Origin: Naegleria gruberi
Lineage: Eukaryota
DNA: 64,000 nt
Assembly (NCBI GenBank): GCA_000004985.1
Contig: GG738912.1
Direction: 5' to 3' (one strand)
A program made the position numbers and the translations under genes. Within the stretch, counting starts at the first letter, position 1; each line of letters starts with the position of its first letter. This document shows, piece by piece, positions 12,793 to 56,803 of the stretch. Under the pieces are notes generated by a model that was not told where the DNA came from, did not search any database, and worked only from the letters and a program-made list of their open reading frames with translations.

Positions 12793-15700
12793 TTACTTTT
12801 TATTGAGCAATGAAAGCGAGGATAAAAGGGCAACACCAGTTTTTCTTTCCTCTCCGTATTTGAATTGTCTAGTTACAAGGTTGAGTCGTTGATGGAATTG
12901 TGACTTGAGGACAGCTCGTTGTTTGGCAGTGAGGAATCTTCTTCCAATTGCTTGAATTGTTGTGGTAGATGATAAAGTTTGTTCAGAAAATTGAGTGGTC
13001 TGTTTTCTTGTAAAGGAACCTCGCAGCAAACCTTGGATAGTTTGTAAATTCTCATTCTTGATGCTTAATTCAACTCTCGTTCTTGATCCCTCAATTGCTG
13101 ATCGAATAGTGAACACCTTATCCGTTATACTCTTGAGTGATTTGGCTTGTTGAATTTGTCTGACTCGGGCTTGCAATAGCGAAATACTACTCAGAGCAAA
13201 TTCAAATTCATTCCTCTTATTGTGACACATAAAGAGAAGAGCGACAGTGTTAGATAACTCCTTCATATCAGTGAGACTCCCTCTCGTTTCATGACCATAA
13301 TACAAGCTCTGAAGATAGTTGGCAGAGTCAGAGACAGTTCTGAAATCTTCATTGACAAATCGTCCTCTAATAATACTCTGCAATGCGTTAATATATTGAA
13401 TGTTGGTATTAAGATCTCTGATTGCAATCTGTTGTTGCATGAGTGATTGAATGGATTCTGTGAGTATTTGCATTTTTTTGAATTCTTGTCTTGTTTGATT
13501 GGCTCTGTAGAGGGCAATGATCATATTTCTAGAATCGAGTAGAGAATCTCTGTCCTCATTAAAAGATCTTTTCACTAGGTTTGACCTGAAAAAGGTCTGA
13601 ATGACAATTAGTCCGCTCATTTTCATATCTCTTTGTTTGAGAGTTGTGAAAGTTCTCACCCTTGATTGAAAGATTTTCATATCTTTCTTTTTCTGATATG
13701 TTTTGAGAATGGTAGTCTTTCTTTCCAATAAGGATTGTAAAACAGTGGCCAGAGTGATAGACTTGCTAAAAGATCTTCTTGCAAGTTGCGATTTGAAGAG
13801 AGCTTGAATGATAGCAATATTTTCTCTGGTTTTTTCAATTCTTCTTTCTTCAGACATTCTATGGACAATAGATTGAATTGTTTTGATGGATTCGGTTGTG
13901 GTGGACGATTGTCTCCTGGTAGAAATTCCATGTAAGCGAGTTGTGACAATTTGAACTTTGGTCATAGAATTTGCATATTGTTTTCTAACTAGACTGGAAC
14001 TCATGAAGGTTGAAATTAAATCCATTTGAGAGGATATTCTTTCGAAAGTCTTCAATGCTAGTTGTTTTCTGCACAAGGACTGAATGTGAGTGAGAGAATT
14101 GATAACTTCTTCTCTACTGGTTCTCGCAGAATATCCTCTTGATGCAGCTTGGAGAGTACCAACACGTTGTAATTGATTTTCATGATTTTTCCTATCTGTA
14201 TTTCCTCTGGCAGCATTTTGAATTATAGTAATTGAATAGTATCTCCTTTCGTTTTGGTATTCTTGTTGAATTGAACGGCTTCTACAGACAGCTTGTAAAT
14301 TAAGAATATGCTTTTCGATACGTGATCTTGTGGAGAGTTGAATGAACCCCTTAGCAAATGATGTGAAAATCTGCAATCTCTCCTGTTCAAGGGTGGTTGC
14401 ATTTCTTTGACTTATGCCATTCCATAAAGATTGAAGTAAAATGACTTGATTGATAGAAGTAGCTTTTTCGTCTTTGGCTTGTTTTCTTCTTAATAGTGAT
14501 TGAAGAGCACTAACGTCTTGAATAGCTTCAGCATTTTCCCTACGTTTGTATTTACCTTGAAAAGCTGCTTGGATGGTGACTAAATCATGTTGAGCTCTTT
14601 CATAACCAGATCTCACAAGGACTCCTTTGGCAAGAGCATGTACATACTTGGTAAATGTTTGGAGTGCATGTATGTTTGATCTTTCCTTGTTTGCTCTCAC
14701 TAATGCTTGAATCATTTGAGTGGCATTCCTATCAATAGGAGAATAATTGTTCTTTTTAGATGATTTGTTTCTAATCAAAGCTTGCAAGACAATAATCTTG
14801 TTAAGGGTTTGATTTTTCAACATGTTGATATTTCTAGAATTAGCCAGTGCTTGTAGAGAAATTAAATCTGAAATGTGTTGCTTTCTGCTCTGTTCTTCAG
14901 CTTTTCTCCTTACCAATGCTTGCAATACTATGATACCAGAACAATCCATGTGAGTCGTGCTTCCTCTTAAAAAGGCTTGAATTATTGTTATATTTTCTAG
15001 TTGCTTTGATTCTATGTTTTGCATTGCAGAGGATCTACATCTAGCTTGTATTGCTAATACTGCATTCTTGGATATTTCAAACTCTGCTCTTGTAAATCTA
15101 TTTCTGATTAGTGACTGGATAATTTCAATATTGTTTAAGGAGTTTTTTACCAATAGTCTGGTCTTATTTCCTCTAAGGAAGGCACAAACCATTGAACTTG
15201 AACTAGTTTGTTTATCCAATTTCTTTTGTACTATTTTTGATCTTATTAATGATTCCAAAGTTTCCAATCTTTTCAAATCCAATTTCATCTTGGCAGCTTC
15301 AGATGATTTCCTAATAGTACTTTGAAGATTGGTAACAAATGCCATGCTGGTTTGAGCTAGTCTTCTTTCCATGCCTGATTGTATTAATGCATGAATAAGA
15401 TGAACACTCTCAATAGGGGATGCATGTTCAGTCCTTTCCTTGTGAGAAATTATTAAATTTTGTATCATGGAGACTGCTTCAAGTTGGTTAAGTTTGCTGG
15501 CAACTGTTGAGCTTGATCTAAAAGCAGATTGAATGGTAATAATTTGATTCTGCATGCGATTTCTACTAGTTCTTTCTGTATTACCTTGTAGCAAGGCATG
15601 CAATAGATTCACTCCACCTCTAATTTTTTGTTCATTAAACTTCCTGATAGTGGCTTGAGCAACAACCAACTTTTGAATATAAACCCTGCCATGGGAATTG

Positions 15701-18700
15701 TTCCTAACAATATGTCCTCTAATAAGAGCTTGCAAACTTGAAATTCGCTGCTTTTCACTCTCCAAACTAGCAGACACAAGGTTGGATCTTGCTGCTGATT
15801 GTATAATTTGAATTTGTTCCATCAATTTAAGCTTGACTTCTCTTTCTATGCATCCTTGGTTTAGTGTTTGAACAATTGTGGCAACATCTCTAAAAGCAGA
15901 CATTTGGAGCTTTTCAACCAGAGATTTTCCAAGTGATTGAAAGGTCAAAATAGCATCTTTTTGTCTACCATCGTTGACCCTTGTAAAGTGGCCAACTACA
16001 GCGCTTTGTATTATCTTGGTATTTCTGATTGCCTTCTCGGTTTCCCTACATTTCAAGAATCTCCTGACCAAAGATTGCATTATTTCCACCAAGTCCCTTG
16101 TTAAGTAAAAGGTTTGCCTTAATGATCTACCTTTAAAAAAAGATGCAAGGGTATTACTATCCTCAAAACGGTTCCTTACCAGAGCTGACTGTAACAAGGT
16201 TGAAATAATATCTATTTTGGACTTTTCTTGTTCCGCTAATCGCCTTGTGTTGAATGACCTAGCACTCAATGAAAGGATAGAAATCATGTCCAAATGAGCT
16301 TGTTTGCTTGTCATTACATGTTTTCCTCTGATTGCACTCTGAATTACAAGCACTTTGGTTAATTGATACATGTCCACATGGTTATTTCCACGTCCTCTGA
16401 AGAAGGCCTGAATATTAGTGATACTATCATGTACATGTGAAAAATTCTTCCTTTCCAAATATCCTCTAATGAGAGCTTGCTGAGTGTTGATGTGGTTTTT
16501 GGTAGGTTGTAGATTTTTTCTCTCATCTCTTCCTCTCATGCTAGATTGCAAATTGATGATGTAAATTGTGTACTGTTCATGTTGTGCACGTAGCGTGTGA
16601 GAAAGAATGAGAGATTGTAAAATCTTGATGTTGTTGATGCATGTTTCCGATTGTTTTCTATTGATGTATGCTCTTCCGAATGTTTCAACTAAAAGAGAAG
16701 AGTCAATCAAGTCCTGATGTTCCTTCAACTTTGCATGTCCTCTTACCACAGCTTGAACATATTTGGTGTTGTTTGAAAGGGTTGAAAGGTGAGCCTTTTC
16801 CAATTTGCTTCTTATACGAGCTTGTAAAGTTTTGATCTTGTTCAATTCATTGATGAAATCTCCTCTACAGAAAGAGGATTGTAAAAAACCTTGTACGATT
16901 TGAACATTTTCTACATTTTCAATAAATTTGTTCTCTGTCAATTGTCTTCGGGAAAGTGATTGAATAACAGTAACATATTCATTAACACTGCTTTCTATTT
17001 TCCTGGCTATAAAACCACGTACCGAAGCTTGAAGAGTCAAAATGTTATAGTGGTTATGTCTAAAGGATTTGATTTCATTCTTTTTACGAATGTTGGATTG
17101 CACCAACAATACGTTATTCATTTGTTTCTCTTGTTCTTGAGTTATTAAAAAGGTCTTGACTCTTGCCTGAAGAGTTATTATTAAACTCTTATTTTGTGAA
17201 AATTCCTTTCGTGCAAAGTTTCCAAATAAAACAGATTGGGTATTCACTAAATCTTCTCTTCTGGCAGATAAATCTTTTCTTGTGAGATAAGATCTAGCTG
17301 CAGTTTGAATCATTCTCAAGTTCGCAACACTGTTTCTAAACAAGCATCTTGTTTCGAATGTCCTTAAAAGTGCCTGAGTAAAACAGATTCTAATTAGTTC
17401 ATTCTTATGCTCCAAACGTTGCACATGACCTTTCATGAGAGAACCTAATATATTTGAGCTTTCAGTTGTGTGTTTAACAAGTTGATTTTCAATTTTTCCT
17501 TGATATAATGTTTGAATTTGATGGGCCAAATTAATTTTAACTTGAAAACCACGTCTAGTCTGTACGCCTCGCAGCCATGATTGTATAGTCGAAACCTTTC
17601 GTTGAGTTTGGTGCATCAATGAACGGTTTAGCTTCCCTGAGAAAGACGCTTGAATACTATTGATGGCATTAATTCGATGCTTCAAATCAATTCTTCCCAA
17701 ATGTCCCTTGATTGAATGCTGTAAAGTTTGAACAGCATTTTGCAAGGAATGCTTATTTACTTGCTCCAATGTGCCTCTTGCTCTTGACTGAATTAGATGG
17801 GCAGCATTTCTCGTATCATAAAATTTCATCTGTCCACTGTGGCCACGAGCCAAAGAGGTCAAGAGAAGTGCCTTATCTAAATCCGTGCAAGCTTGCGAAG
17901 CGGTATTAATGCTCCTTAATAGAGTTTGAAGAAGCAACACACCCTTTTTAAGATCTGTATATTCCTTCCTTCTTGCGACAGCGTCAATTAAAGTTTGTAG
18001 GACAAGCACGTCCGATTTATACCTTTGGACTACCTTTTGTTGTTCTAGTCCACGACCATTGGCTTGAAGAAGGGAAGCAACTTGCACATATTGAGATAGG
18101 TCCTTTCTTACAAATAAAGATCTTGAAACAGGTTGAACAAGGATAGCAACGTGTTTCTTCTTTTTAAAGTCTAGGAATACCTTTCTTGCACAACAAACAG
18201 ATTGAATTAAAGTGGATGCATTCAACGCTGAATCTTTGAATTTCTGAATCAATTTGGCTCTTATAAGCGATTGTACAAGTGTAATTCTATTACATTGTTC
18301 TTTAAAGGTTGTACGAGCATTGAAACCCCTGATTGCACTATCCATAATCAAACATTTTGAATTCAAAGATTTTCTGTTTCGGTATTCGATAAATCTTCTG
18401 GAAAGCGTTTGAATGGTAGTAATGTCATTGATTAGATGGTTCAAATTGGATTGGCATTGCTTGACCCTTATCAAGGTCTGTATTGCTTGGATATTAGAAA
18501 TTTCCTTAGAGGAGTCTTGTTTCAAAAGTATTCTCCTGATCAATGCCTGAAGTAATGGAATGGATTCACTAGTGGTTTGATATTTCTTTCTCTGATTGCA
18601 TCCTAGTATCGTAGATTGAATTACTTTGATATTTTCCATAGAAAGAGTAAAGCATTTAGCTTGTTGTCCAGCTCTGAATAATCCTTGGATTACTACAGCA

Positions 18701-21700
18701 GAGTCCAAACTTGTTGTGAGATTAGTTCTTTCCAATCTTCCAACTAATGCTGCATTGAATAGATGAGCCAAATTTCGGAGCAATTGCAGGTTTTTCCTAC
18801 TAACATTAGAAGACATCATAGCTTGCAAAACCTCAATTGAGGAGGAGAAGATTACCATTTCCTGCCTGTCAGAAGAACCCTTGATGGATGCTTGCAGAGT
18901 GAGTAAAAAATTCTCCAATTGGCTCACTTCCTTCATTGCTGCTCTTCCTCTAACAAGACTTTGAAGCAATATTATCCTACTTGTCAAAACCGAACGAGAA
19001 TGTTTAACTGATAATGCCTTGGAAAGAGCTGTAAATATTTCGGATCTATCCAATTCGAATCTATAAATTTGTCCTTCTCCTTTGCCTCTGCAAAAGCTTT
19101 GCATTATCTGTATGGCTTCCTTCTTCGATTGTAAATCTTTTTGCTTATGATGTCTCCTTACAAGTGACTGTAAAGTAATGATTTGTTGAATATTGTGTCT
19201 TGTGAAGGAGACTAATAATCTAGACCTTGAAATAGACTGAAGAATTACAATTTGTTGAATATTCTTTGCAAAACAACCTCTTTCAAGTTTTGATCTGGAG
19301 AGCGATTGAATACATTCCAAGTTCAACTTGTTAGAATTGAAATCTTCTTGTTGGTATCTTCTTCTGTGCCAAGTTTGAACGGTGAGAGCAGTAACCCTCA
19401 TCAGATTGAATGTCTCTCTGATTCTATTAGACTCGCACAACACTGCAATGTTTGAAAGGGCTTGAGTCCTGAACACCTCAAAGGCAAAGAGTGAACAAAC
19501 TCTAATTAACTCTGCATCCTCGACAAGTCTTTGGTCTTCCATGATTTCGTCCTCCTCTCCAAAATAAGGTCTCATTCTCGGTATTTCACAATTGTCAGGA
19601 TAGCAATCATAATTAAATCTAACTACAGCCTCCATGAACTCGATAATGAAAAGTGGAATATACTTGAAATCAAGTGGGAATAGCCGTATTTCGTTCAAGT
19701 ATGGGAAGAGTTGTACTTGAACCCATATCAACAAAAGGGGAACCGTAGATTTTGCATCTTCTTCTACCACCTCATCTACCTTTTTGCTTGTTGTCGAATA
19801 GTAATGTTCATTCATTTTGGTGAGAACGGATTTAAGTTTTTCTCCATCATAGTGAACCAGTAGAGCTTCGTGGAAAATGTGTGAGAGAGGGTGTTCATCT
19901 CCAATTTTCATCAATGACTTGTAATTTTCCACATACTTTTCTGCATCTTCGATTGATATCTTTTCAGAAATCAAGTCAACTATACCTCTAACATTATCAC
20001 CTCTAGGATCTAATTTTTCAATTTCCTTTCTCAAAATTGCTGGGGTTAGTTTGGATTTAATCTTATCCAAAGAAGTAGGTTCCTCTGGGAATTGTATTCC
20101 TTCTTCATCTGAAATTTTTTCAATTTCCGATTGGTCTGATGATGACTCTCTGCCATGTCTCTTCAGTGGAGGTTCTTCATAATTTGCCAGAGATTCTAAG
20201 GATGTAACCTTAGCCATATCAGTGGATGTTGGTGTTGAAGGAGTTTTTGCCTTTTTGGCAAACTTGTTGAAAAAACTTTTGATTTTTTCACTTTTTGTCT
20301 TTTTTCTTTCTAATAGTTGACTACTTGTCAATGCTATTTGCGTATTACTATATGTTGATTCATCATCATCAAGTGTATCCAAACTCTGTCCTACAGAACG
20401 GCTGAAATTATTGTTTCTTGCTGGTGCTGATGCAACAGAAAATGCAGTGAAATTACTGTGAGAAGAAATTGTATCAAAAAGATCATCCCTTTCCACAGAT
20501 CCCTTCCCATCCATTAGACTGATTTTAAATGATTTGGATATATTCATGGCTTGAGATCTTCTGACTGGACTCTTTGGAGTTGTTGAGCCAGAAGCTTTTT
20601 CAGCCAGCTCTGAAAAATTGACACCCTTTCTTCTTTTCTGAGACAAATCTTTGTGTACTCCATTAAATTCTGTCAACTTGACTAGAACTTCACTCACCTC
20701 ACTATTAACATGAGAATGGGTTGTGGTTGTACTTATTTGAGAGGCAAAGGTGTGAGTATATTGTGAATATTGAGATTCTTCTGGTGATACAGGTGTTGCT
20801 GTTTCCTTCTTTTTTCTTTTTAATTTTGTAATTATGGAAGGCAACTTTCCTAGTAGAGATTTTGATCTTCCTTTCGTGGTTTCCTTTGTTATTGGAACTA
20901 CTATAGAGGGAACAACAACTAGAGGTCCTTGAAAATTATTGTTTGCTGATGCTGATGTATTACTGGTACCAGTATGATTAGGTGTATTTCCACTAGAAAT
21001 ATCCGATGTATTCATATCATCAAAATCATTGTCAGATTCATTCTCCTCTCCTTGCATATCATTCTCTGTAATATCATCAAATGATGCTCCATACACTCTA
21101 TTGCCATGTTGAACATTTTGAGTTGATGGTGTAATGCTGGATGCACTTGGTGGTGGTGAGGGTCTTCCTCTTGGTGAAAATTCATTCCTTGGAGAACGAC
21201 CATTTGGCATGATTGACCTAGGTGATAATAAGTTACCTCCTCTCGGAGTGTATAAATTGTGAGCTAGTGAATGTGATCGATGTGTACGACCACCACTCTT
21301 GGATGAAGATGTTGTAGATGCAAGTGAACTCTTATTTGAATTATTTCTAAATCTACCAACAGGTCTATTCTGTACAGGTGGTTTACTAATTACTATGGCT
21401 ACAGGTGTGGAGGAATTAATTGATGGTGAATTATCGCTATTATTGTTGGTTTGTTTACTCGATGTTACTAAATTATTCGAATAGATTATTACTCCTCCTC
21501 CATTAGTTGAAGAAGTACTTGTTCCATTCTGATTATTAGGTATTTGTCTATAGAAGGAAGAAGATGAATGTAGGGATGTATTGCTATTATTGTTACTATT
21601 ATTGAAAAGGGATGCTGGATTGGAATTTTGAATGGCAGAAAGTTTTAACTGGGGAATGACAGCAGGTACTCTTTTCGAGGAAGTAGAAGAGAAGGTAGAT

Positions 21701-22275
21701 GCATTAGGTGGAGTGGATGGAGAAATTGGTGAAAAGGTCGTGTTATTACTTCCCTGAAGATGATGAAGATTTGAGGCAAAATTGGGACTTGATGACTGAG
21801 AACGATGTCTTGGTGATAATGTCGATGATGAAGACAATGAATTGGCAAGTGATAAATTAGAAGAACCCACATTCCGTAAAACTGAAGAAGCCGAAAGTAT
21901 TCCTCCTCCTACTCCTCCTGGTGAATTCGAGTTATCCAAACATTGACTATTACCTATCGATAATTGACCTCCATTATTATTATTATTACTAATAATATTA
22001 TTATTAATCGAAGCAGCAATCAATCCTCCAATATTATTATTATTATTATCCATAATACTATTATTTAAATTAATTGTTCCTTGTTGTTGCACACTTGTCG
22101 GCGATGATACAACAACAGATGCAGATGCACCTCCTCCTCCTCCCTGAGCAGACGAAGAAATACTTCCATTGAAAAGAACATTTTGTGCAGCTGCTGATGA
22201 TGATAAATTGGCGGCGGGAAGTAAATCTTGATGGAGGCGGGAAGTGATTTTTTCGGGATTTATCGAATTTCCCAT
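12793..22275 (-). CDS. giant IQ-motif array protein (3160 aa), ASPM/Asp-like architecture without recognisable CH or motor domain
   Basis: Uninterrupted 9.5-kb ORF. The N-terminal ~700 aa are S/N/G-rich and disordered. A ~250-aa globular region follows (…LLIWVQVQLFPYLNEIRLFPLDFKYIPLF…). Then ~2100 aa consist of degenerate repeats with ~23–27-aa period matching the IQ consensus [IVL]Qxx[IVL]RGxxxR (e.g. IQSLVRRHH, IQALIRGHIVR, LQSLVRGRAAMK), running to the C-terminus. Confidence 0.75.
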   Translation of the reverse strand: MGNSINPEKITSRLHQDLLPAANLSSSAAAQNVLFNGSISSSAQGGGGGASASVVVSSPTSVQQQGTINLNNSIMDNNNNNIGGLIAASINNNIISNNNNNGGQLSIGNSQCLDNSNSPGGVGGGILSASSVLRNVGSSNLSLANSLSSSSTLSPRHRSQSSSPNFASNLHHLQGSNNTTFSPISPSTPPNASTFSSTSSKRVPAVIPQLKLSAIQNSNPASLFNNSNNNSNTSLHSSSSFYRQIPNNQNGTSTSSTNGGGVIIYSNNLVTSSKQTNNNSDNSPSINSSTPVAIVISKPPVQNRPVGRFRNNSNKSSLASTTSSSKSGGRTHRSHSLAHNLYTPRGGNLLSPRSIMPNGRSPRNEFSPRGRPSPPPSASSITPSTQNVQHGNRVYGASFDDITENDMQGEENESDNDFDDMNTSDISSGNTPNHTGTSNTSASANNNFQGPLVVVPSIVVPITKETTKGRSKSLLGKLPSIITKLKRKKKETATPVSPEESQYSQYTHTFASQISTTTTHSHVNSEVSEVLVKLTEFNGVHKDLSQKRRKGVNFSELAEKASGSTTPKSPVRRSQAMNISKSFKISLMDGKGSVERDDLFDTISSHSNFTAFSVASAPARNNNFSRSVGQSLDTLDDDESTYSNTQIALTSSQLLERKKTKSEKIKSFFNKFAKKAKTPSTPTSTDMAKVTSLESLANYEEPPLKRHGRESSSDQSEIEKISDEEGIQFPEEPTSLDKIKSKLTPAILRKEIEKLDPRGDNVRGIVDLISEKISIEDAEKYVENYKSLMKIGDEHPLSHIFHEALLVHYDGEKLKSVLTKMNEHYYSTTSKKVDEVVEEDAKSTVPLLLIWVQVQLFPYLNEIRLFPLDFKYIPLFIIEFMEAVVRFNYDCYPDNCEIPRMRPYFGEEDEIMEDQRLVEDAELIRVCSLFAFEVFRTQALSNIAVLCESNRIRETFNLMRVTALTVQTWHRRRYQQEDFNSNKLNLECIQSLSRSKLERGCFAKNIQQIVILQSISRSRLLVSFTRHNIQQIITLQSLVRRHHKQKDLQSKKEAIQIMQSFCRGKGEGQIYRFELDRSEIFTALSKALSVKHSRSVLTSRIILLQSLVRGRAAMKEVSQLENFLLTLQASIKGSSDRQEMVIFSSSIEVLQAMMSSNVSRKNLQLLRNLAHLFNAALVGRLERTNLTTSLDSAVVIQGLFRAGQQAKCFTLSMENIKVIQSTILGCNQRKKYQTTSESIPLLQALIRRILLKQDSSKEISNIQAIQTLIRVKQCQSNLNHLINDITTIQTLSRRFIEYRNRKSLNSKCLIMDSAIRGFNARTTFKEQCNRITLVQSLIRAKLIQKFKDSALNASTLIQSVCCARKVFLDFKKKKHVAILVQPVSRSLFVRKDLSQYVQVASLLQANGRGLEQQKVVQRYKSDVLVLQTLIDAVARRKEYTDLKKGVLLLQTLLRSINTASQACTDLDKALLLTSLARGHSGQMKFYDTRNAAHLIQSRARGTLEQVNKHSLQNAVQTLQHSIKGHLGRIDLKHRINAINSIQASFSGKLNRSLMHQTQRKVSTIQSWLRGVQTRRGFQVKINLAHQIQTLYQGKIENQLVKHTTESSNILGSLMKGHVQRLEHKNELIRICFTQALLRTFETRCLFRNSVANLRMIQTAARSYLTRKDLSARREDLVNTQSVLFGNFARKEFSQNKSLIITLQARVKTFLITQEQEKQMNNVLLVQSNIRKKNEIKSFRHNHYNILTLQASVRGFIARKIESSVNEYVTVIQSLSRRQLTENKFIENVENVQIVQGFLQSSFCRGDFINELNKIKTLQARIRSKLEKAHLSTLSNNTKYVQAVVRGHAKLKEHQDLIDSSLLVETFGRAYINRKQSETCINNIKILQSLILSHTLRAQHEQYTIYIINLQSSMRGRDERKNLQPTKNHINTQQALIRGYLERKNFSHVHDSITNIQAFFRGRGNNHVDMYQLTKVLVIQSAIRGKHVMTSKQAHLDMISILSLSARSFNTRRLAEQEKSKIDIISTLLQSALVRNRFEDSNTLASFFKGRSLRQTFYLTRDLVEIMQSLVRRFLKCRETEKAIRNTKIIQSAVVGHFTRVNDGRQKDAILTFQSLGKSLVEKLQMSAFRDVATIVQTLNQGCIEREVKLKLMEQIQIIQSAARSNLVSASLESEKQRISSLQALIRGHIVRNNSHGRVYIQKLVVAQATIRKFNEQKIRGGVNLLHALLQGNTERTSRNRMQNQIITIQSAFRSSSTVASKLNQLEAVSMIQNLIISHKERTEHASPIESVHLIHALIQSGMERRLAQTSMAFVTNLQSTIRKSSEAAKMKLDLKRLETLESLIRSKIVQKKLDKQTSSSSMVCAFLRGNKTRLLVKNSLNNIEIIQSLIRNRFTRAEFEISKNAVLAIQARCRSSAMQNIESKQLENITIIQAFLRGSTTHMDCSGIIVLQALVRRKAEEQSRKQHISDLISLQALANSRNINMLKNQTLNKIIVLQALIRNKSSKKNNYSPIDRNATQMIQALVRANKERSNIHALQTFTKYVHALAKGVLVRSGYERAQHDLVTIQAAFQGKYKRRENAEAIQDVSALQSLLRRKQAKDEKATSINQVILLQSLWNGISQRNATTLEQERLQIFTSFAKGFIQLSTRSRIEKHILNLQAVCRSRSIQQEYQNERRYYSITIIQNAARGNTDRKNHENQLQRVGTLQAASRGYSARTSREEVINSLTHIQSLCRKQLALKTFERISSQMDLISTFMSSSLVRKQYANSMTKVQIVTTRLHGISTRRQSSTTTESIKTIQSIVHRMSEERRIEKTRENIAIIQALFKSQLARRSFSKSITLATVLQSLLERKTTILKTYQKKKDMKIFQSRVRTFTTLKQRDMKMSGLIVIQTFFRSNLVKRSFNEDRDSLLDSRNMIIALYRANQTRQEFKKMQILTESIQSLMQQQIAIRDLNTNIQYINALQSIIRGRFVNEDFRTVSDSANYLQSLYYGHETRGSLTDMKELSNTVALLFMCHNKRNEFEFALSSISLLQARVRQIQQAKSLKSITDKVFTIRSAIEGSRTRVELSIKNENLQTIQGLLRGSFTRKQTTQFSEQTLSSTTTIQAIGRRFLTAKQRAVLKSQFHQRLNLVTRQFKYGEERKTGVALLSSLSLLNKK

Positions 22276-28553: not shown

Positions 28554-28625
28554 GGGGACCAGTGGGAATCGAACCCACGGCCTCTCGCACCCAAAGCGAG
28601 AATCATACCACTAGACCATGGTCCC
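28554..28625 (-). tRNA. tRNA-Pro (anticodon TGG)
   Basis: Reverse complement GGGACCATGGTCTAGTGGTATGATTCTCGCTTTGGGTGCGAGAGGCCGTGGGTTCGATTCCCACTGGTCCCC is a canonical cloverleaf with loop TTTGGGT; near-identical to eukaryotic tRNA-Pro-UGG; a T-run follows. Confidence 0.85.
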
Positions 28626-35655: not shown

Positions 35656-35904
35656 ATAAATTTCACTTGGTCAATTGACAATATGAAATGAAATTTTAAA
35701 ATAGATACTTCAAAATACGGCTCTTGATCAACATTCAACTCAAATTTGAAATTTGGAACGAAAGAGGATTACCCATAAATCAAGAAATCGGTTTTGGATC
35801 ATTTAGCTCTTAGTCCAAATCTGGTTGACTGATGAAAACCTTCTCAAATACTATAAAACCAATGCCTGGCGAATACTTTTCAAATCATTCAACAAAAAAA
35901 CAAA

Positions 35905-37110
35905 TTGATTCAAATCAATATGAAAAATTCAGCTCTTAAATCAATCCTTCTAGGATTGGCTTTCATTGCACTTTCTGCAATGGTGGTCATGGGAACAGCT
36001 CCTCAAAAACCTGTTTCTAAACCAACTGATACTTATGGTGATCATCAACAATATTGTTACAATAAGTGTACTCATTACAAGACTATTCAAGGTAAATGCG
36101 TTGATTACGAATGGGTTGGTACCAAGAAGGAATGCTGTGATTGGAAGACAGTTGGCAAGGGTAAATGTTTGGAATATAAGAAGACTCACAAGTGTGACAA
36201 GTACAGTAAGAATGAAAAGATTTGTTTGGGTCACGGTTACAAACAATTCTGTACCAAGGTTACTAAGCATAAGATTTGTGCCAAATATGAATGGAAGGAA
36301 TTGTGCAAACATCACGGAAAGAATAATGCATGTGATGAATATGCTTATCATTTCATTTGTACCAAGTATGGTCATTCTGCTAGATGTGCTGAAGAAACCT
36401 ACGTTCCAAAGATTAAGTATTTCCATAAGAAGAGATGTGCCAAATACTCTGTCCATCAATATTGTGCCAAATATAAGAAACTCTCAAGAACTGTTGCTAA
36501 ATGGGTTCCAGTCAGTAAGAAACATTACAAGGGTTGGATTGATCATTACTATAAGCAAGTTTTGGAAAAGAAGTATCACACCATCTGTGTTGCTTATGCC
36601 AAGAGAAAGACCTGTACCAAATATGAAAACGTCAAGTTTGCCAAGAAGATTGGTTATGAAAAGAAGTGTGTCAAAATCGTCAGAAGAAAGTATTGTGTTG
36701 CCAAGCAAAAGGCTAAATTCTGTACCAAGTGGACTCCAAGCAAATTCTGTGATCTCAAAGAAAAGGTCAGAATCTGTAAGGCTTTCAGAGAAGATAAGTT
36801 CTGTTGTGATTATACTGCCAAGCCATATTGTACTCAATACAAGACATTGAAGCCAAGATGTATTAAGAGATCATTCAAGAAGCATTGTGTCAAGAAGTCA
36901 CCAGGTTATAAGGTCTGTGTCAAGTACAACTTTGTTGGAGGTAAGAGAATTTGTAAAAAGCACGCTGATAAGAGTGTCTGTGCTAAGAAGAAGAGAGTTT
37001 GTACTAAGGTTGATACCTACAAACCACCAAAGAAAGTTGACACCTACAAGCCACCAAAGAAGGTTGATACTTACAAACCACCAAAGAAGGTCGACACTTA
37101 TAAGAAGTAA
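35905..37110 (+). CDS. secreted, very basic Lys/Cys/Tyr-rich repeat protein with C-terminal 4x KVDTYKPPK repeats (no family recognised)
   Basis: Signal-peptide-like MKNSALKSILLGLAFIALSAMVVMG; about 11 spaced C-[AT]-K-[YW] units (CAKYEWKELC, CTKYGHSARC, CAKYSVHQYC, CTKYENVK, CTQYKTLKPRC…); AAG-rich coding; ends KVDTYKPPKKVDTYKPPKKVDTYKPPKKVDTYKK*. Confidence 0.65.
   Translation: MIQINMKNSALKSILLGLAFIALSAMVVMGTAPQKPVSKPTDTYGDHQQYCYNKCTHYKTIQGKCVDYEWVGTKKECCDWKTVGKGKCLEYKKTHKCDKYSKNEKICLGHGYKQFCTKVTKHKICAKYEWKELCKHHGKNNACDEYAYHFICTKYGHSARCAEETYVPKIKYFHKKRCAKYSVHQYCAKYKKLSRTVAKWVPVSKKHYKGWIDHYYKQVLEKKYHTICVAYAKRKTCTKYENVKFAKKIGYEKKCVKIVRRKYCVAKQKAKFCTKWTPSKFCDLKEKVRICKAFREDKFCCDYTAKPYCTQYKTLKPRCIKRSFKKHCVKKSPGYKVCVKYNFVGGKRICKKHADKSVCAKKKRVCTKVDTYKPPKKVDTYKPPKKVDTYKPPKKVDTYKK
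37006..37107 (+). repeat. 27-bp tandem repeat (3.8 copies) encoding KVDTYKPPK
   Basis: aaggttgatacctacaaaccaccaaag / aaagttgacacctacaagccaccaaag / aaggttgatacttacaaaccaccaaag / aaggtcgacacttataag: copies differ mainly at synonymous positions. Confidence 0.8.
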
Positions 37111-37492
37111 TTCGATCAATTTTGAATTAATATCAGAAAATTTCTAATTAATTAATTAGAATTTATATCCGAAAACTACTTTGTGAGAAAACAAGAGCCT
37201 AATAAAAACCCAATTTTCTTAAATTTATGAAACTTTCAAATCCTCCCTTGCTATAACCATTTAATAGTAGTAATCATGATGAAACTTCTTCCTTAAGGAA
37301 ACCAACGCCTTAATTTTTTTTTCTCACCAAAGAAAAATTCCACCACGCTACCTGCATCGTACGGATTCATCATATCGTTTGATACTCGACAAATTAAATC
37401 AAAGGCAAAAAATTGGGTGGTTCTTTTTCTTATTATTGTATATTAACAAGAGTGAGGGAAGGAGTTGTTGACAACAAATAATAAAAGAGAGA

Positions 37493-49226: not shown

Positions 49227-50678
49227 TTACAATAAATTTATCAAGAATACAAAAATCAAGACAAGCAATCCAATCACAGAATTCAAAGAAGAAGCTGCAC
49301 TTCTCTCTGGAAGAATAGGCAAAGCACTTGCAGAGTAAGCTTGCCAATCAACTCCTGCCAAATCTCCACTACTTGAAATTCCAGTTTTCTCCAAAGATTT
49401 CTTCATGCACGAATAATACCTACTATAGGCAACTTTACATTTGGTGAAGAGAGAGCTAGCTTGATCTGCAAATTGATTCTTATCCAGGCCATGATATACC
49501 CTTGTTCCACTAGTAACATCTATTCCCATATTGTAGAGACATGCTCTAATATCTGTGGCGGGTCCATCACATGGAGTGGTGCATTTTCCAAAGGTGTATG
49601 GGAGGGTTCCTTTACCTCCACAAGAACATGCTCCTAATTTACAGCCATCAGAGTTGCCACAAATATCATCATCTAGTTTTTCTTCACATCTTTTTGAGGT
49701 GGAGCAATAGGAGGTGTAGCATTCATCATTTTGTTTACAACTTCCACCCAATGGAGTTCCATAAATTCTTTGACATTTGTAATTGATACACTTAACGATA
49801 TTTGATTTAGAAAAGGCACAATCGCTGTCAATTACACAACTATCTCCATAGGAAGGAACATTTTGACAAGTGAAAGTTGGGTCACTTTGAGAAGTTTGGC
49901 GACAAACCAAATCATTATCACACAAATCAGTACCTGTAGTACTGCAAACACCACCTCTTGGAATTCTATCCATGCAAGTCCATTGCCCACTTCCTTTAGA
50001 TGTTTCTTTACATTGTAAACCATTTCCACATAAAGTGAATTGAGGTGCATCAGATTCTGCATTTCCACAGACTGCTCCCTTGCCAACCCTTACAATTGGC
50101 ACACATTTGCTAGGTTGGCCAGAAGTTACGTACTTGTAACATGTAGAACCCTCTTTACAACCATAAATTATCTTTGCATTGTTATCAACATAACAAGAGT
50201 CTCCATTGTTTCGTTTTTCAATCTTGAATTTTGAACACTTATTCTGAATACATTTAACACCAATGAAATTTGCTAAAAAATCATTCAGAGTTGTATATGT
50301 TGTTGTATCTTGTAAACATTGACCGTCAATTTCACAAGAATCACCCAAATATCTATATGCTTGATAACACTTTTGATTAAAGCAATTCAAGGATGGAAAG
50401 AGACAATTATAATTTCCATAACATGTGGTCACATTCATGAAAGATTGTACATATGTGTATGGAGAGCATTTGGAAGCAAAGTTTACAAAACCAGGAGGAC
50501 AGATTGAGCTATCTCCTTGGGTTGTTTCTGTTTCTGCTAAGAAAGCACTTGCACAGGATTGCTGGAAGGAATGGTTGATTTGTGGCCAACATGTTGATTG
50601 TTTTTTTTTGTGTCTGTGGTGGTTTTGACATGAACATGTCAATCGTGATTTAATGATGAATTTGGAAGTTACAGACAT
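49227..50678 (-). CDS. Cys-rich extracellular repeat protein with C-terminal hydrophobic GPI-anchor-like tail; 5' end uncertain
   Basis: Repeated GDSC…D.DC…C…KC modules (about 60 Cys). C-terminus …ERSAASSLNSVIGLLVLIFVFLINLL*. The first Met gives a non-hydrophobic N-terminus (an A9 run lies 60 nt downstream of the ATG), so the signal-peptide exon or start is unresolved. Confidence 0.55.
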   Translation of the reverse strand: MSVTSKFIIKSRLTCSCQNHHRHKKKQSTCWPQINHSFQQSCASAFLAETETTQGDSSICPPGFVNFASKCSPYTYVQSFMNVTTCYGNYNCLFPSLNCFNQKCYQAYRYLGDSCEIDGQCLQDTTTYTTLNDFLANFIGVKCIQNKCSKFKIEKRNNGDSCYVDNNAKIIYGCKEGSTCYKYVTSGQPSKCVPIVRVGKGAVCGNAESDAPQFTLCGNGLQCKETSKGSGQWTCMDRIPRGGVCSTTGTDLCDNDLVCRQTSQSDPTFTCQNVPSYGDSCVIDSDCAFSKSNIVKCINYKCQRIYGTPLGGSCKQNDECYTSYCSTSKRCEEKLDDDICGNSDGCKLGACSCGGKGTLPYTFGKCTTPCDGPATDIRACLYNMGIDVTSGTRVYHGLDKNQFADQASSLFTKCKVAYSRYYSCMKKSLEKTGISSSGDLAGVDWQAYSASALPILPERSAASSLNSVIGLLVLIFVFLINLL

Positions 50679-56729: not shown

Positions 56730-56803
56730 TACCGACAATGGGGCTCGAACCCACGACCCCAGGATTAGAAGTCCTGTGCTCTATCCAACTGAGCTATGAC
56801 GGC
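56730..56803 (-). tRNA. tRNA-Arg (anticodon TCT)
   Basis: Reverse complement GCCGTCATAGCTCAGTTGGATAGAGCACAGGACTTCTAATCCTGGGGTCGTGGGTTCGAGCCCCATTGTCGGTA folds as a cloverleaf (loop CTTCTAA; one U·U and one G·U in the acceptor stem); a T-run follows downstream. Confidence 0.75.

What the first reader, a model, noticed from the sequence alone, without database searches (positions are those of the whole stretch)
35905..37110. Secreted, ultra-basic Lys/Cys/Tyr-rich repeat protein ending in mussel-adhesive-like KVDTYKPPK tandem repeats
Seen in sequence: a 401-aa single-exon ORF has a signal-peptide-like N-terminus. Its body is built from about 11 iterations of C-[AT]-K-[YW] spaced 12–25 residues apart (CAKYEWKELC, CTKYGHSARC, CAKYSVHQYC, CAKYKKLSR…, CTKYENVK, CTKWTPSKFC, CTQYKTLKPRC, CVKYNF). 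Lys, Cys and Tyr together exceed 40% of residues. The C-terminus is a near-perfect 4x nonapeptide KVDTYKPPK, encoded by a 27-bp tandem repeat whose copies differ mostly at synonymous sites, which indicates purifying selection on the peptide. I recognise no described family. Established knowledge: Lys/Tyr/Pro-rich short tandem peptides are the hallmark of marine adhesive proteins (mussel foot protein-1 decapeptide AKPSYPPTYK), and basic Cys-rich secreted proteins also occur as wall-structural or antimicrobial proteins. Inference: this is an extracellular structural/adhesive (cell-wall, spore-wall or substrate-attachment) or antimicrobial protein.
Basis: partly seen in the sequence, partly recalled or inferred. 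Interest (0 to 1): 0.8.

Follow-up and report, generated by a model that had tools for sequence, protein, structure and literature searches.

The report
Secreted cysteine-ladder hairpin protein of Naegleria
This is a real, strongly conserved gene of the amoeba Naegleria gruberi for a secreted, extremely basic protein. Its 32 cysteines are laid out mirror-symmetrically, as if the chain folds into one long disulfide-zipped hairpin rod with tyrosine-lysine-proline motifs at both ends. It is probably a cross-linked cyst-wall or matrix building block, but nobody has studied it and its function is untested.

Summary
The gene (ATG 35920 to stop 37110, 396 aa) is Naegleria gruberi NAEGRDRAFT_74241, annotated only as 'predicted protein'. 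It has a conserved signal peptide and no other hydrophobic segment. The mature protein carries net charge +71 and is 41.5 % Lys+Cys+Tyr. The C-terminal KVDTYKPPK repeat (27 bp x 3.4) differs between copies only at synonymous sites.

The 32 Cys sit on a 9-residue lattice, and the spacing is mirror-symmetric about a Cys-free centre (16 + 16 Cys; p about 0.001). The symmetry holds in every divergent paralogue, including mirrored insertions and mirrored Cys gains. AlphaFold independently predicts one giant two-stranded antiparallel hairpin with its turn at the symmetry centre, but its register is 2-4 residues off Cys-on-Cys. x-D-x-Y motifs occupy both poles of this rod.

The family is tiny: 21 hits among 1.84 billion representatives. 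All named members are from Naegleria or Willaertia. It has no Pfam, PDB or literature match.

Best reading (about 0.45): an abundant extracellular structural protein, most likely of the cyst wall, rigidified by a disulfide ladder and joined through its Tyr/Lys/Pro ends. No expression or localisation data could be found. An antimicrobial or adhesive role remains open.

The parts
35852..35857 (+). TATAAA box-like element 68 nt upstream of the ATG
   Evidence: Pattern scan. The upstream 173 nt are 100 % identical in the environmental contig L001. A promoter role is inferred, not tested.
35920..37110 (+). Coding sequence of NAEGRDRAFT_74241 (396 aa plus stop), single exon
   Evidence: The translation is identical to P0012 / XP_002670712.1 / D2VYU1. 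Against L001 there are 16 synonymous and 1 nonsynonymous codon differences. It has the strongest codon bias of 24 ORFs in the window (AAG 74 %, TTC 82 %, GAA/AGA/CAA 100 %, GC3 0.39).
35920..35994 (+). Signal peptide (residues 1-25; predicted cleavage after VMG)
   Evidence: Hydrophobic core with KD 2.77 and small residues at -3/-1. The layout is conserved in all N-terminally intact homologues. No SignalP run was possible.
35995..36054 (+). Mature N-terminal Pro/Lys-rich arm carrying one x-D-x-Y motif (TDTY, nt 36025-36036)
   Evidence: D37 and Y39 are at least 90 % conserved. Every basic family member has 1-3 such motifs before the first Cys.
36055..36465 (+). N-terminal strand of the Cys ladder (residues 46-182, 16 Cys, mostly C-x8-C)
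   Evidence: Cys positions and gaps. The Cys are invariant or nearly so across the family. AlphaFold predicts beta strands for full-length residues 83-95, 99-131 and 140-201 (renumbered).
36466..36585 (+). Cys-free centre (residues 183-222) forming the tip of the hairpin. Predicted turn HYKGW (nt 36523-36537), followed by the invariant IDHY motif (nt 36538-36549)
   Evidence: The largest Cys gap (41) is the centre of mirror symmetry. Both AlphaFold runs place the turn at residues 198-210 and 202-206. D208 and Y210 are invariant.
36586..37002 (+). C-terminal strand of the Cys ladder (residues 223-361, 16 Cys), whose spacing mirrors the N-terminal strand
   Evidence: Gaps counted outward from the centre are 9,18,9,9,9,9,9,1,8,10,9,10,12,9,7 here and 9,17,9,9,9,9,9,9,10,9,10,1,12,10,4 in the N strand. 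Mirror cost is 12 against a null of 28.4 +/- 3.8, p = 0.0008.
37003..37107 (+). C-terminal tail TKVDTYKPPK-KVDTYKPPK-KVDTYKPPK-KVDTYKK (27-bp tandem repeat 37006-37097)
   Evidence: TRF. Differences between copies are synonymous only. Copy number and period vary among relatives: 2 in NAEGRDRAFT_71888, 4 in P0013, 4 x 8-mer IDSYKPx in N. fowleri FDP41_004030.
37201..37206 (+). AATAAA, a possible polyadenylation signal 91 nt after the stop
   Evidence: Pattern scan. Its function is inferred.

Best explanation
The gene encodes an abundant secreted structural protein restricted to Naegleria and Willaertia.

After signal-peptide removal, the 371-residue chain folds back on itself at residues 202-206 into one very long two-stranded antiparallel ribbon. 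The ribbon is held by about 15 regularly spaced cross-strand disulfide rungs, one every 9 residues. If fully extended, this would be a stiff, highly cationic rod of roughly 40 nm.

Both poles of the rod carry x-D-x-Y motifs. At the open end these are the N-terminal TDTY and the four C-terminal VDTYKPP(K) copies. At the tip it is IDHY. One or two 'extra' cysteines sit in CC doublets.

I infer that these handles join rods to each other or to other wall components. The joins could be oxidative Tyr/Lys cross-links, intermolecular disulfides, or both. The lysine-rich shaft would bind anionic matrix material.

Naegleria trophozoites and flagellates have no wall (my own knowledge, not tested here). 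The only elaborate extracellular structure they build is the cyst wall, so that is the most likely destination.

Shown: secretory features, the lattice, mirror symmetry, conservation, and the predicted hairpin topology.
Inferred: the disulfide connectivity, the cross-linking chemistry, and the cyst-wall location.
For: - Secretion: a conserved signal peptide and no other hydrophobic segment.
- Lattice: 16 of 31 Cys gaps equal 9, against 1.3 expected.
- Mirror symmetry in the window protein and closer paralogues: p = 0.0008 for the window protein; 0/5000 for P0006; 0.0002 for P0007; 0.0008 for P0020; 0.0002 for P0008. Direct (duplication-type) correspondence is no better than chance.
- Mirror symmetry in divergent members, tested with a best-centre-corrected null: P0029 0/2000; P0022 and P0023 0.0005.
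- Lineage-specific changes keep the symmetry:
  - An insertion between C147 and C156 is matched by one between C250 and C259 in the P0007/P0008/P0020 group.
  - An extra Cys in the 17-residue gap is matched by one in the 18-residue gap.
  - Two extra Cys appear on each side of the centre (2+2).
  - The two halves stay balanced (15/15 to 19/20 Cys) while totals range from 30 to 39.
- The nearest-neighbour loop alternative would force homologous Cys to change partners between paralogues.
- AlphaFold on the core with a 10-sequence alignment gives mean pLDDT 68.5, and above 70 over about 255 residues. It shows a single giant hairpin with strand breaks at mirrored positions and the turn at the symmetry centre. 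The first full-length run gave the same central hairpin.
- x-D-x-Y motifs lie at the termini, the tip and the mirrored bulges in all basic members.
- Three of the subfamilies have odd Cys counts (35 or 37). The extra Cys sits in a CC doublet at a different place in each, which implies at least one unpaired Cys.
- The strong codon bias suggests high expression.
- Purifying selection: 16 synonymous to 1 nonsynonymous change.
- Analogy: coccidian oocyst walls combine Cys-rich proteins with Tyr-rich proteins cross-linked as dityrosine/DOPA (PMC10729351).
Against: - No expression, proteomic or localisation data exist for any family member in the literature I could search.
- The AlphaFold register is i+j of about 408-410. 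The Cys-on-Cys register needs 405-406. The model therefore places each Cys opposite the Tyr/Trp at +3 of the facing unit and does not itself show disulfide rungs.
- Only one of five AlphaFold models was confident, and pTM is 0.26.
- A rung spacing of 9 (odd) alternates hydrogen-bonded and non-hydrogen-bonded cross-strand sites. That is unusual for disulfides in a regular beta ribbon.
- No free-standing two-stranded ribbon of this length turned up in the PDB fold search.
- Mirror symmetry would also fit an antiparallel homodimer.
- Sequence similarity between mirrored units is only weakly enriched (p = 0.03), and part of that comes from matched unit lengths.
- The family members are related, so their p-values are not independent.
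- The codon-bias argument lacks a reference set of highly expressed Naegleria genes.
Confidence: 0.45

Rival explanations
1. It is a secreted or phagosomal antimicrobial or bacteria-binding protein. On this reading the hairpin is a giant, disulfide-braced, polycationic version of the small beta-hairpin antimicrobial peptides. A bacterivorous amoeba would use it to bind, agglutinate or permeabilise prey.
For: - Net charge +71 and pI about 9.7.
- A signal peptide.
- A predicted disulfide-stabilised beta-hairpin.
- Established knowledge: tachyplesin, protegrin and arenicin are cationic beta-hairpins with cross-strand disulfides.
- Strong codon bias would fit a constitutively abundant feeding-stage protein.
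Against: - At 371 residues it is about 15-20 times longer than hairpin antimicrobial peptides.
- Hydrophobic and charged residues do not segregate to opposite faces, because the 9-residue period flips the pattern at every unit.
- The conserved terminal Tyr/Lys/Pro motifs and the unpaired Cys have no role in this model.
- Divergence between N. gruberi and N. fowleri is ordinary (56-64 % identity), with every Cys spacing preserved. That is not the fast evolution typical of defence effectors.
- Less basic environmental relatives (P0023 net +30, P0022 net +66 over 713 aa) keep the ladder.
Confidence: 0.15
2. It is an adhesive or surface-coat protein of amoebae or cysts, used for substrate attachment in the way of mussel foot proteins. 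The Lys/Tyr/Pro repeats would mediate wet adhesion.
For: - The KVDTYKPPK repeat is kept by selection.
- The Lys + Tyr + Cys-rich basic composition recalls mussel foot proteins 1 and 6 (from memory).
- Secretory features.
Against: - The repeat is a short tail (3.4 copies). It is lost or replaced by Lys/His-rich tails in several paralogues (P0002, P0007, P0008, P0029).
- The conserved bulk of the protein is the Cys ladder, not the repeat.
- There is no membrane or GPI anchor to couple adhesion to the cell.
- No DOPA or hydroxylation evidence is available.
Confidence: 0.12
3. The Cys ladder is not a hairpin. On this reading it is a string or solenoid of 16 small C-x8-C disulfide loops (nearest-neighbour pairing), and the mirror symmetry is incidental.
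For: - With 32 Cys, sequential pairing places all three long gaps (17, 41, 18) between pairs rather than within them.
- Units are directly similar to one another, for example 50-60 with 304-314 and 60-72 with 333-345.
- The AlphaFold register does not put Cys opposite Cys.
Against: - Loss of one Cys of the CC doublet and gain of a single Cys elsewhere in paralogues would shift the pairing phase for long runs of homologous Cys.
- It does not explain the mirror symmetry (p <= 0.001 in seven proteins) or the mirrored insertions.
- Both AlphaFold runs give the hairpin.
Confidence: 0.15

Closest known systems
Coccidian oocyst-wall proteins: Cys-rich OWP/COWP plus Tyr-rich GAM56/GAM82 (PMC10729351)
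   Same: They are secreted. The wall combines proteins with periodic Cys, proposed there to be disulfide cross-linked, with Tyr-rich proteins hardened by dityrosine/DOPA cross-links. They build an environmentally resistant wall of a protist resting stage.
   Different: There is no sequence relationship (no Pfam or PDB hit). Here both features sit in one polypeptide. The Cys lattice is a strict 9-residue, mirror-symmetric ladder. Wall location is not shown for the Naegleria protein.
Mussel foot protein 1 (decapeptide AKPSYPPTYK) and mfp-6 (from memory)
   Same: They are basic and rich in Lys/Tyr/Pro (and Cys in mfp-6). They contain short tandem peptides with a T-Y-K / K-P-P flavour and are extracellular.
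   Different: mfp-1 is almost entirely repeat (about 75-80 copies), with DOPA and Hyp. Here there are 3.4 copies at the C-terminus, about 9 % of the chain. There is no homology, and modifications are untested.
Plant repetitive proline-rich wall proteins (PPVYK) and extensins; insect resilin repeat GGRPSDSYGAPGGGN (from memory)
   Same: PP-V-Y-K is close to KPPK-V-DT-YK. The resilin core P-S-D-S-Y-G matches the family's N-terminal P-V-D-S-Y-G. In those proteins Tyr forms isodityrosine or dityrosine cross-links that insolubilise the matrix.
   Different: Those proteins are Cys-poor, repeat-dominated and flexible. Here the motifs are only terminal or tip 'handles' on a Cys-laddered core. The resemblance is a lead, not a test.
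Small disulfide-braced hairpins: beta-hairpin antimicrobial peptides (tachyplesin, protegrin, arenicin), theta-defensin cystine ladder, twin CX9C (CHCH) helical hairpins, plant alpha-hairpinins (from memory)
   Same: Mirror-symmetric Cys placement that ties two antiparallel segments of one chain together. Several of these are strongly cationic.
   Different: Those have 2-3 rungs in 17-60 residues. Here there are about 15 rungs over about 2 x 137 residues. CHCH spacing is i, i+10 on helices in the mitochondrial intermembrane space, whereas this protein has i, i+9, predicted beta strands and a signal peptide.
Cyst-wall lectins of other amoebae: Entamoeba Jacob/Jessie, Acanthamoeba Luke/Leo/Jonah (PMC6541295)
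   Same: Secreted, Cys-rich, abundant, and specific to the wall of a resting stage.
   Different: Those are built from recognisable chitin- or cellulose-binding domains. None is detected here, and no carbohydrate binding has been tested.

Membership tests
Mussel foot protein 1-type adhesives | The protein consists mainly of tens of tandem copies of a Lys/Pro/Tyr deca- or hexapeptide | tested here: not met
   3.4 copies of a nonapeptide, 37006-37097, about 9 % of the protein.
Mussel foot protein 1-type adhesives | Tyr converted to DOPA and Pro to hydroxyproline | not testable with these tools
   Needs amino-acid analysis or mass spectrometry of native protein.
Plant proline-rich wall proteins / extensins | PPVYK- or SPPPP-type repeats dominate the sequence, which is Cys-poor | tested here: not met
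   Pro is 3.8 % and Cys 8.1 %. KPP occurs only in the tail.
Apicomplexan oocyst wall proteins (OWP/COWP) | Sequence homology to the Cys-rich type I/II OWP repeats | tested here: inconclusive
   No Pfam-A family matched at E < 0.1 for the window protein, and nothing near a cut-off for the 13 family members. The profile search of 1.84 billion representatives gave 21 hits; the ones I traced to a source were Naegleria, Willaertia or unnamed metagenome contigs, two more were low-complexity 9-residue repeats, and several fragments and one 2774-aa weak hit were not traced. I did not confirm that Pfam holds an OWP model.
Beta-hairpin antimicrobial peptides | Mature peptide of about 17-25 residues with 1-3 cross-strand disulfides and an amphipathic cationic surface | tested here: not met
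   The mature chain is 371 residues with 32 Cys, and the 9-residue unit gives no consistent amphipathic face.
Twin CX9C (CHCH) proteins | Two C-x9-C motifs on antiparallel helices; no signal peptide; imported into the mitochondrial intermembrane space | tested here: not met
   The spacing is C-x8-C. AlphaFold predicts beta strands. An N-terminal signal peptide is present.
Amoebal cyst-wall lectins (Jacob, Jessie, Luke, Leo, Jonah) | A recognisable chitin- or cellulose-binding domain (6-Cys/8-Cys CBD, CBM49, choice-of-anchor A) | tested here: not met
   No Pfam domain hit and no PDB sequence hit at E <= 1.
Amoebal cyst-wall proteins in general (functional class) | Induced during encystation and present in purified cyst walls | not testable with these tools
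   No data were found in the main text of the searchable library or in four supplement sets. One of the supplement files was truncated in storage.
Naegleria/Willaertia Cys-ladder family (defined here) | Signal peptide; x-D-x-Y motif(s) before the first Cys; 30-39 Cys on a 9-residue lattice that is mirror-symmetric about one centre | tested here: met

The most novel reading that the evidence does not exclude
This would be the founding member of a new architecture of fibrous extracellular protein. A single chain forms a two-stranded beta-ribbon rod about 40 nm long. The rod is zipped by about 15 mirror-symmetric disulfide rungs, one every nine residues, and carries resilin/PRP-like x-D-x-Y(KPP) cross-linking handles at both poles. 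It would serve as a principal structural component of the so far uncharacterised Naegleria cyst wall, including that of the pathogen N. fowleri.
Probability: 0.3. Interest if true: 0.8.

Novelty: new variant of a known kind. Interest (0 to 1): 0.55.

Why it matters
I found no identification of Naegleria cyst-wall proteins in the searchable literature. Cysts are the environmentally resistant form of the genus, which includes the brain-eating N. fowleri, and N. fowleri carries three paralogues of this family.

A concrete, abundant, lineage-specific candidate makes wall composition directly testable and could give a cyst-specific marker.

Independently of function, a free-standing two-stranded beta ribbon of about 137 residues per strand, braced by a periodic mirror-symmetric disulfide ladder, would be an unusual protein architecture. 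It could also serve as a template for designed stiff, cross-linkable protein rods.

Tried and rejected
**Homology and fold searches that found nothing**
- Pfam scans of the protein and of 13 + 9 relatives gave nothing near a cut-off.
- A PDB sequence search with the family profile gave 0 hits at E <= 1.
- Foldseek of the better model against the PDB gave a best E of 0.011 and TM about 0.1. The hits were only proteins with long hairpins (pore-state lysenin, aerolysin, phi29 tail), so they are not meaningful.
- The afdb50 library was unavailable.

**Literature**
- Locus tags and UniProt accessions appear nowhere. The single 'D2VSC2' hit was a pine drought contrast label.
- Searching 'Werth' hit an unrelated name.
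- The 1967 cyst-wall chemistry paper is not held.

**Supplements**
- The N. gruberi copper proteome, the N. fowleri cyst/trophozoite transcriptome and the N. fowleri mouse-infection transcriptome gave no occurrences.
- One file was truncated and another was tiny, so absence says little.

**Genomic context**
- There is no tandem paralogue in the window.
- The neighbours are unrelated: ferredoxin-like, Ras-like, cation-efflux and USP7 genes.
- The N. fowleri orthologue is not syntenic.

**Ideas tested and dropped**
- Internal duplication of the two halves: direct correspondence of spacings is no better than chance.
- Sequence similarity between mirrored units as extra support: only p = 0.03, partly driven by matched unit lengths, and strong similarities also occur between non-partners. 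I did not use it.
- The first full-length AlphaFold run was too poor (mean pLDDT 40.5) to interpret beyond the central hairpin.
- An endogenous viral origin is unlikely: GC content is uniform at about 33 % and the flanking genes are ordinary eukaryotic ones.
Full report
**1. What is at the coordinates**

- The mechanical ORF list shows a 401-aa ORF from a TTG at 35905 to the stop at 37110 on the + strand.
- The window is eukaryotic. GC is about 33 % throughout, with densely packed, mostly uninterrupted genes and two tRNAs.
- The first ATG is at 35920 and gives 396 aa. This translation is identical to Naegleria gruberi NEG-M NAEGRDRAFT_74241 (XP_002670712.1, UniProt D2VYU1), named only 'predicted protein'. 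The window is therefore N. gruberi DNA.
- A TATAAA lies 68 nt upstream of the ATG, and an AATAAA lies 91 nt after the stop.
- An environmental contig (L001) carries the same gene. Its CDS is 98.6 % identical at nucleotide level and differs at 17 codons, 16 of them synonymous and one V66I. This is a real gene under purifying selection.
- Its codon usage is the most biased of the 24 ORFs of at least 200 aa in the window. AAG is 74 % of Lys codons (20-64 % elsewhere), TTC is 82 %, GAA/AGA/CAA are 100 %, and GC3 is 0.39. I read this as a hint of high expression at some stage. I had no reference set of highly expressed Naegleria genes to calibrate it.

**2.

- *Signal peptide.* The N-terminus is MKNSALK, then a 15-residue hydrophobic core (mean Kyte-Doolittle 2.77), then VMG|TAPQKP.
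  - All 20 N-terminally intact relatives have the same layout.
  - Nothing beyond residue 40 is hydrophobic enough for a membrane span, and there are no N-glycosylation sequons.
  - No SignalP was available, so this is a rule-based call.
- *Composition.* K is 22.7 %, Y 8.6 % and C 8.1 %. K+R is 102 against D+E 29, and pI is 9.75.
  - K+C+Y is 39.4 % of the precursor and 41.5 % of the mature chain, with net charge +71.
  - Other ORFs in the window average 13 %.
- *Tandem repeat.* TRF finds 27 bp x 3.4 copies at 37006-37097.
  - The peptide is KVDTYKPPK three times, then KVDTYKK.
  - All six variable sites within the shared part are third-position and synonymous. About 19 % of random changes there would be synonymous, so P is about 4e-5.
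- *Motif count and spacing.* The strict C-[AT]-K-[YW] occurs 6 times. C-x-x-[YWF] follows 17 of 32 Cys (P about 1e-7), and a hydrophobic residue precedes 18 of 32 Cys.
The real regularity is described next.

**3. The 9-residue lattice and its mirror symmetry**

- The protein has 32 Cys. Sixteen of the 31 successive gaps are exactly 9, against 1.3 expected and a maximum of 8 in 20,000 shuffles. Twenty-two gaps are 8-10.
- The consensus unit is C-x-K-[Y/W/H]-small-K-x-K-[F/I/Y].
- Sixteen Cys precede and sixteen follow a 40-residue Cys-free centre (residues 183-222).
- Gaps counted outward from that centre:
  - N-terminal half: 9,17,9,9,9,9,9,9,10,9,10,1,12,10,4
  - C-terminal half: 9,18,9,9,9,9,9,1,8,10,9,10,12,9,7
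- I scored the correspondence with a dynamic-programming comparison of gap lists.
  - The mirror cost is 12, against 28.4 +/- 3.8 for shuffled gaps (p = 0.0008).
  - The direct (duplication-type) comparison costs 31, no better than chance.
- A duplication produces direct symmetry, not mirror symmetry. Mirror symmetry is what antiparallel pairing of the two halves requires.

**4. The family, and why the symmetry is not an accident**

*Size and range of the family*
- A word-indexed search found 10 relatives.
- A full HMMER profile search of 1.84 billion representatives found 21. Two of these, P0035 and P0037, are low-complexity 9-residue Cys repeats and I regard them as spurious.
- Of the hits traced to a source, the named ones are:
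  - N. gruberi 71888, 64508, 48501, 67458 and 76199
  - N. fowleri FDP41_004030, 003065 and 001988
  - N. lovaniensis C9374_000273 and 009239
  - Willaertia magna ABK040_005866
- The other traced hits are unnamed metagenome contigs. Several short fragments and the weak 2774-aa hit P0036 were not traced.
- Pfam and PDB sequence searches are empty.

*Conservation of the Cys pattern*
- Cys positions are invariant or nearly so.
- The subfamily closest to the window protein has exactly the same 31 gaps in three species.

*Lineage-specific changes that keep the two halves matched*
- The P0007/P0020/P0008 group has an 8-residue insertion between the equivalents of C147 and C156, and a 13-15-residue insertion between the equivalents of C250 and C259 (6-8 and 12-15 residues by the Cys-gap counts). 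Under mirrored pairing these lie between the same two rungs (147 with 259, 156 with 250).
- The same group has one extra Cys inside the 17-residue gap and one inside the 18-residue gap.
- It also has two extra Cys on each side of the centre. The P0006 group shows these too.
- The distant paralogue NAEGRDRAFT_67458 (P0029) has a different, short centre (CDSYSKSVDSYQPQKC) and 15 + 15 Cys.
- The less basic environmental relatives P0022 and P0023 have a C-x-C centre with 19/20 and 17/18 Cys.

*Statistics and the alternative pairing*
- Mirror costs beat the null in all of them:
  - 0/5000 for P0006, 0.0002 for P0007, 0.0008 for P0020 and 0.0002 for P0008
  - 0/2000 for P0029 and 0.0005 for P0022 and P0023, with the centre re-optimised in every shuffle
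- These proteins are related, so the p-values are not independent. The independent evidence is the set of compensating changes.
- Nearest-neighbour pairing (sixteen C-x8-C loops) fits the window protein alone. It would force homologous Cys to swap partners in paralogues that lost one Cys of a CC doublet and gained a single Cys elsewhere.

*Extra cysteines*
- 'Extra' Cys occur as CC doublets at different places:
  - 72/73 and 295/296 in the window protein
  - only the N-terminal doublet in P0006
  - 376/377 in P0007
  - 336/337 in P0008
- This gives odd totals (35 or 37) in three subfamilies, so at least one Cys there cannot be paired within the chain.

**5. Structure prediction**

- The full-length AlphaFold run with a 9-sequence alignment was poor (mean pLDDT 40.5). 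It was confident (76-87) only for a long hairpin, E157-197 / E211-251.
- A second run on the core (residues 46-361, 10 sequences) gave mean pLDDT 68.5 for the best model, and above 70 for about 255 residues.
  - It shows essentially one giant two-stranded antiparallel hairpin.
  - In full-length numbering the strands are 83-95, 99-131 and 140-201, then the turn 202-206 (HYKGW), then strands 207-270, 279-310, 314-326 and 330-333.
  - The strand breaks fall at mirrored places. For example, 132-139 and 271-278 both lie between the rungs C129/C138 and C268/C277.
- Caveats:
  - Only one of five models was confident, and pTM is 0.26.
  - From the strand boundaries the register is i+j of about 408-410, whereas Cys opposite Cys needs 405-406. 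The model therefore faces each Cys to the aromatic residue at +3 of the opposite unit and does not demonstrate the rungs.
  - I had no access to coordinates.
- Foldseek against the PDB found nothing significant.
- The hairpin topology and its centre are thus supported by two independent lines: spacing symmetry and AlphaFold. The disulfide connectivity is inferred.
- An antiparallel homodimer would satisfy the symmetry equally well. The variable, loop-like centre and the AlphaFold turn favour the intramolecular hairpin.

**6. The motifs at the poles**

- An x-D-x-Y motif ([V/T/P/I]-D-[T/S/P/K]-Y) precedes the first Cys in every basic member, in 1-3 copies.
- In one subfamily it is repeated after the last Cys:
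  - VDTYKPPK x 4 in the window protein
  - x 2 in NAEGRDRAFT_71888
  - IDSYKPx x 4 with an 8-residue period in N. fowleri FDP41_004030
- It also sits at the predicted tip:
  - IDHY 207-210, with D208 and Y210 invariant
  - VDSY in the P0029 tip
  - QDLY...PDPY in the P0007 group
- In the P0007 group it additionally occurs in the two mirrored insertions.
- In the hairpin model the N- and C-terminal arms emerge together at the open end. Every basic member therefore carries these motifs at both poles of the rod.
- The different repeat periods (9 against 8) and copy numbers indicate repeated independent expansion of the same short motif.
- From memory, the motif resembles three known sequences: plant proline-rich wall proteins (PPVYK), mussel foot protein 1 (AKPSYPPTYK), and most closely the resilin repeat (GGRPSDSYGAPGGGN, against KPVDSYGEH in N. 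fowleri). In these three, the Tyr residues are the sites of oxidative cross-linking or, as DOPA, of adhesion. This is a lead, not a test.

**7. Most likely mechanism**

I commit to the following, with confidence about 0.45.

- The protein is a secreted, abundant structural protein. The chain forms a stiff, polycationic rod, about 137 residues per strand and roughly 40 nm if extended, braced by about 15 disulfide rungs.
- Rods are joined to each other or to other matrix components through the Tyr/Lys/Pro handles at both poles. Joining through the unpaired Cys of the CC doublets is also possible.
- The lysine-rich shaft binds anionic partners.
- Naegleria amoebae and flagellates are wall-less (my own knowledge). 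The cyst wall is the only elaborate extracellular structure, so it is the most probable site.
- Coccidian oocyst walls offer a functional precedent. They combine Cys-rich proteins with Tyr-rich proteins hardened by dityrosine/DOPA and peroxidase (PMC10729351).
- Shown: secretory features, the lattice, the symmetry and its evolutionary maintenance, selection, and the predicted hairpin.
- Inferred: disulfide connectivity, cross-link chemistry, abundance and location.

**8. Rivals**

- A giant cationic hairpin acting on bacteria (0.15). Charge and hairpin fit. Size, the lack of an amphipathic face, the ordinary evolutionary rate and the conserved handles do not.
- A mussel-like adhesive (0.12). 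The repeat is short, and several paralogues have lost it.
- A non-hairpin string of C-x8-C loops (0.15, as a structural alternative). It is contradicted by the paralogue comparison but not excluded.

**9. Comparison with the known, and novelty**

- The protein fails the defining features of mussel foot proteins, plant PRPs/extensins, hairpin antimicrobial peptides, CHCH proteins and amoebal wall lectins (see the membership table).
- Membership of the apicomplexan OWP family could not be settled. No homology was detected, but I could not confirm that an OWP model was among those searched.
- It belongs to a small, unnamed, Naegleria/Willaertia-restricted family that no paper in the searchable library mentions.
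- As a functional kind it is familiar: a secreted, Cys- and Tyr-rich, cross-linkable matrix protein.
- Its architecture, a long mirror-symmetric 9-residue Cys ladder, has no counterpart that I could find. I therefore rate it a new variant of a known kind.
- Interest is 0.55. The structural inference is surprising and testable, and it gives a concrete candidate for the uncharacterised Naegleria cyst wall. Function rests on inference alone.

Noticed in passing
window 49227-50678 (-): A 483-aa ORF with 43 Cys (8.9 %) and a C-terminal hydrophobic tail (LLVLIFVFLINLL). It has no Pfam hit and is unrelated to the finding by tblastn. It is possibly another Cys-rich surface or GPI-anchored protein. The N-terminus of the mechanical ORF may be wrong.
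   Followed up: partly
window 12793-22275 (-): An uninterrupted 3160-aa ORF whose only Pfam match is a series of IQ calmodulin-binding motifs.
   Followed up: no
window 28554-28625 (-) and 56730-56803 (-): tRNA-Pro(TGG) and tRNA-Arg(TCT) genes.
   Followed up: no
P0030 (NAEGRDRAFT_76199) and P0026 (Willaertia magna ABK040_005866): These public gene models join the C-terminal half of a family member to SAM+PB1 domains or to RCC1 repeats. They are probably chimeric annotations rather than real fusions.
   Followed up: partly
P0022/P0038 and P0023 (metagenome contigs): These are less basic relatives that keep the mirror-symmetric ladder. They lack x-D-x-Y motifs, end in C-[AT]-Y-E, and have a C-x-C centre. 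P0022 also carries a second, different Cys-rich repeat domain at its N-terminus with no Pfam match. This suggests the ladder is older than the polycationic character.
   Followed up: partly
L002 (JGI 3300061832, 1509 nt): This contig starts 2 nt before the ATG of P0008 and ends about 7 nt after a 3' AATAAA, so it is the length of an mRNA. It may come from a metatranscriptome, which would be indirect evidence that a paralogue is transcribed. The sample type could not be checked.
   Followed up: no
L003 5001-6343 (N. fowleri VFQX01000036.1): The N. fowleri orthologue FDP41_004030 spans 1343 nt for 379 aa, so it contains an intron, whereas the N. gruberi gene is intronless. Its neighbours (bromodomain, RPS24e, ankyrin) differ from those in the window, so synteny is not conserved.
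   Followed up: no
window 36067-36099 and 36829-36861 (residues 50-60 and 304-314): CTHYKTIQGKC and CTQYKTLKPRC are strongly similar in the direct sense although they are not mirror partners. Likewise 60-72 CVDYEWVGTKKEC and 333-345 CVKYNFVGGKRIC, which are mirror partners. The units are evidently ancient repeats of one another.
   Followed up: partly
P0035, P0037 (profile-search hits): These are long runs of 9-residue Cys-periodic low-complexity repeats (for example CGALTPHQF) in unrelated, GC-rich predicted proteins. They score weakly against the family profile and look like false positives caused by the shared period.
   Followed up: no
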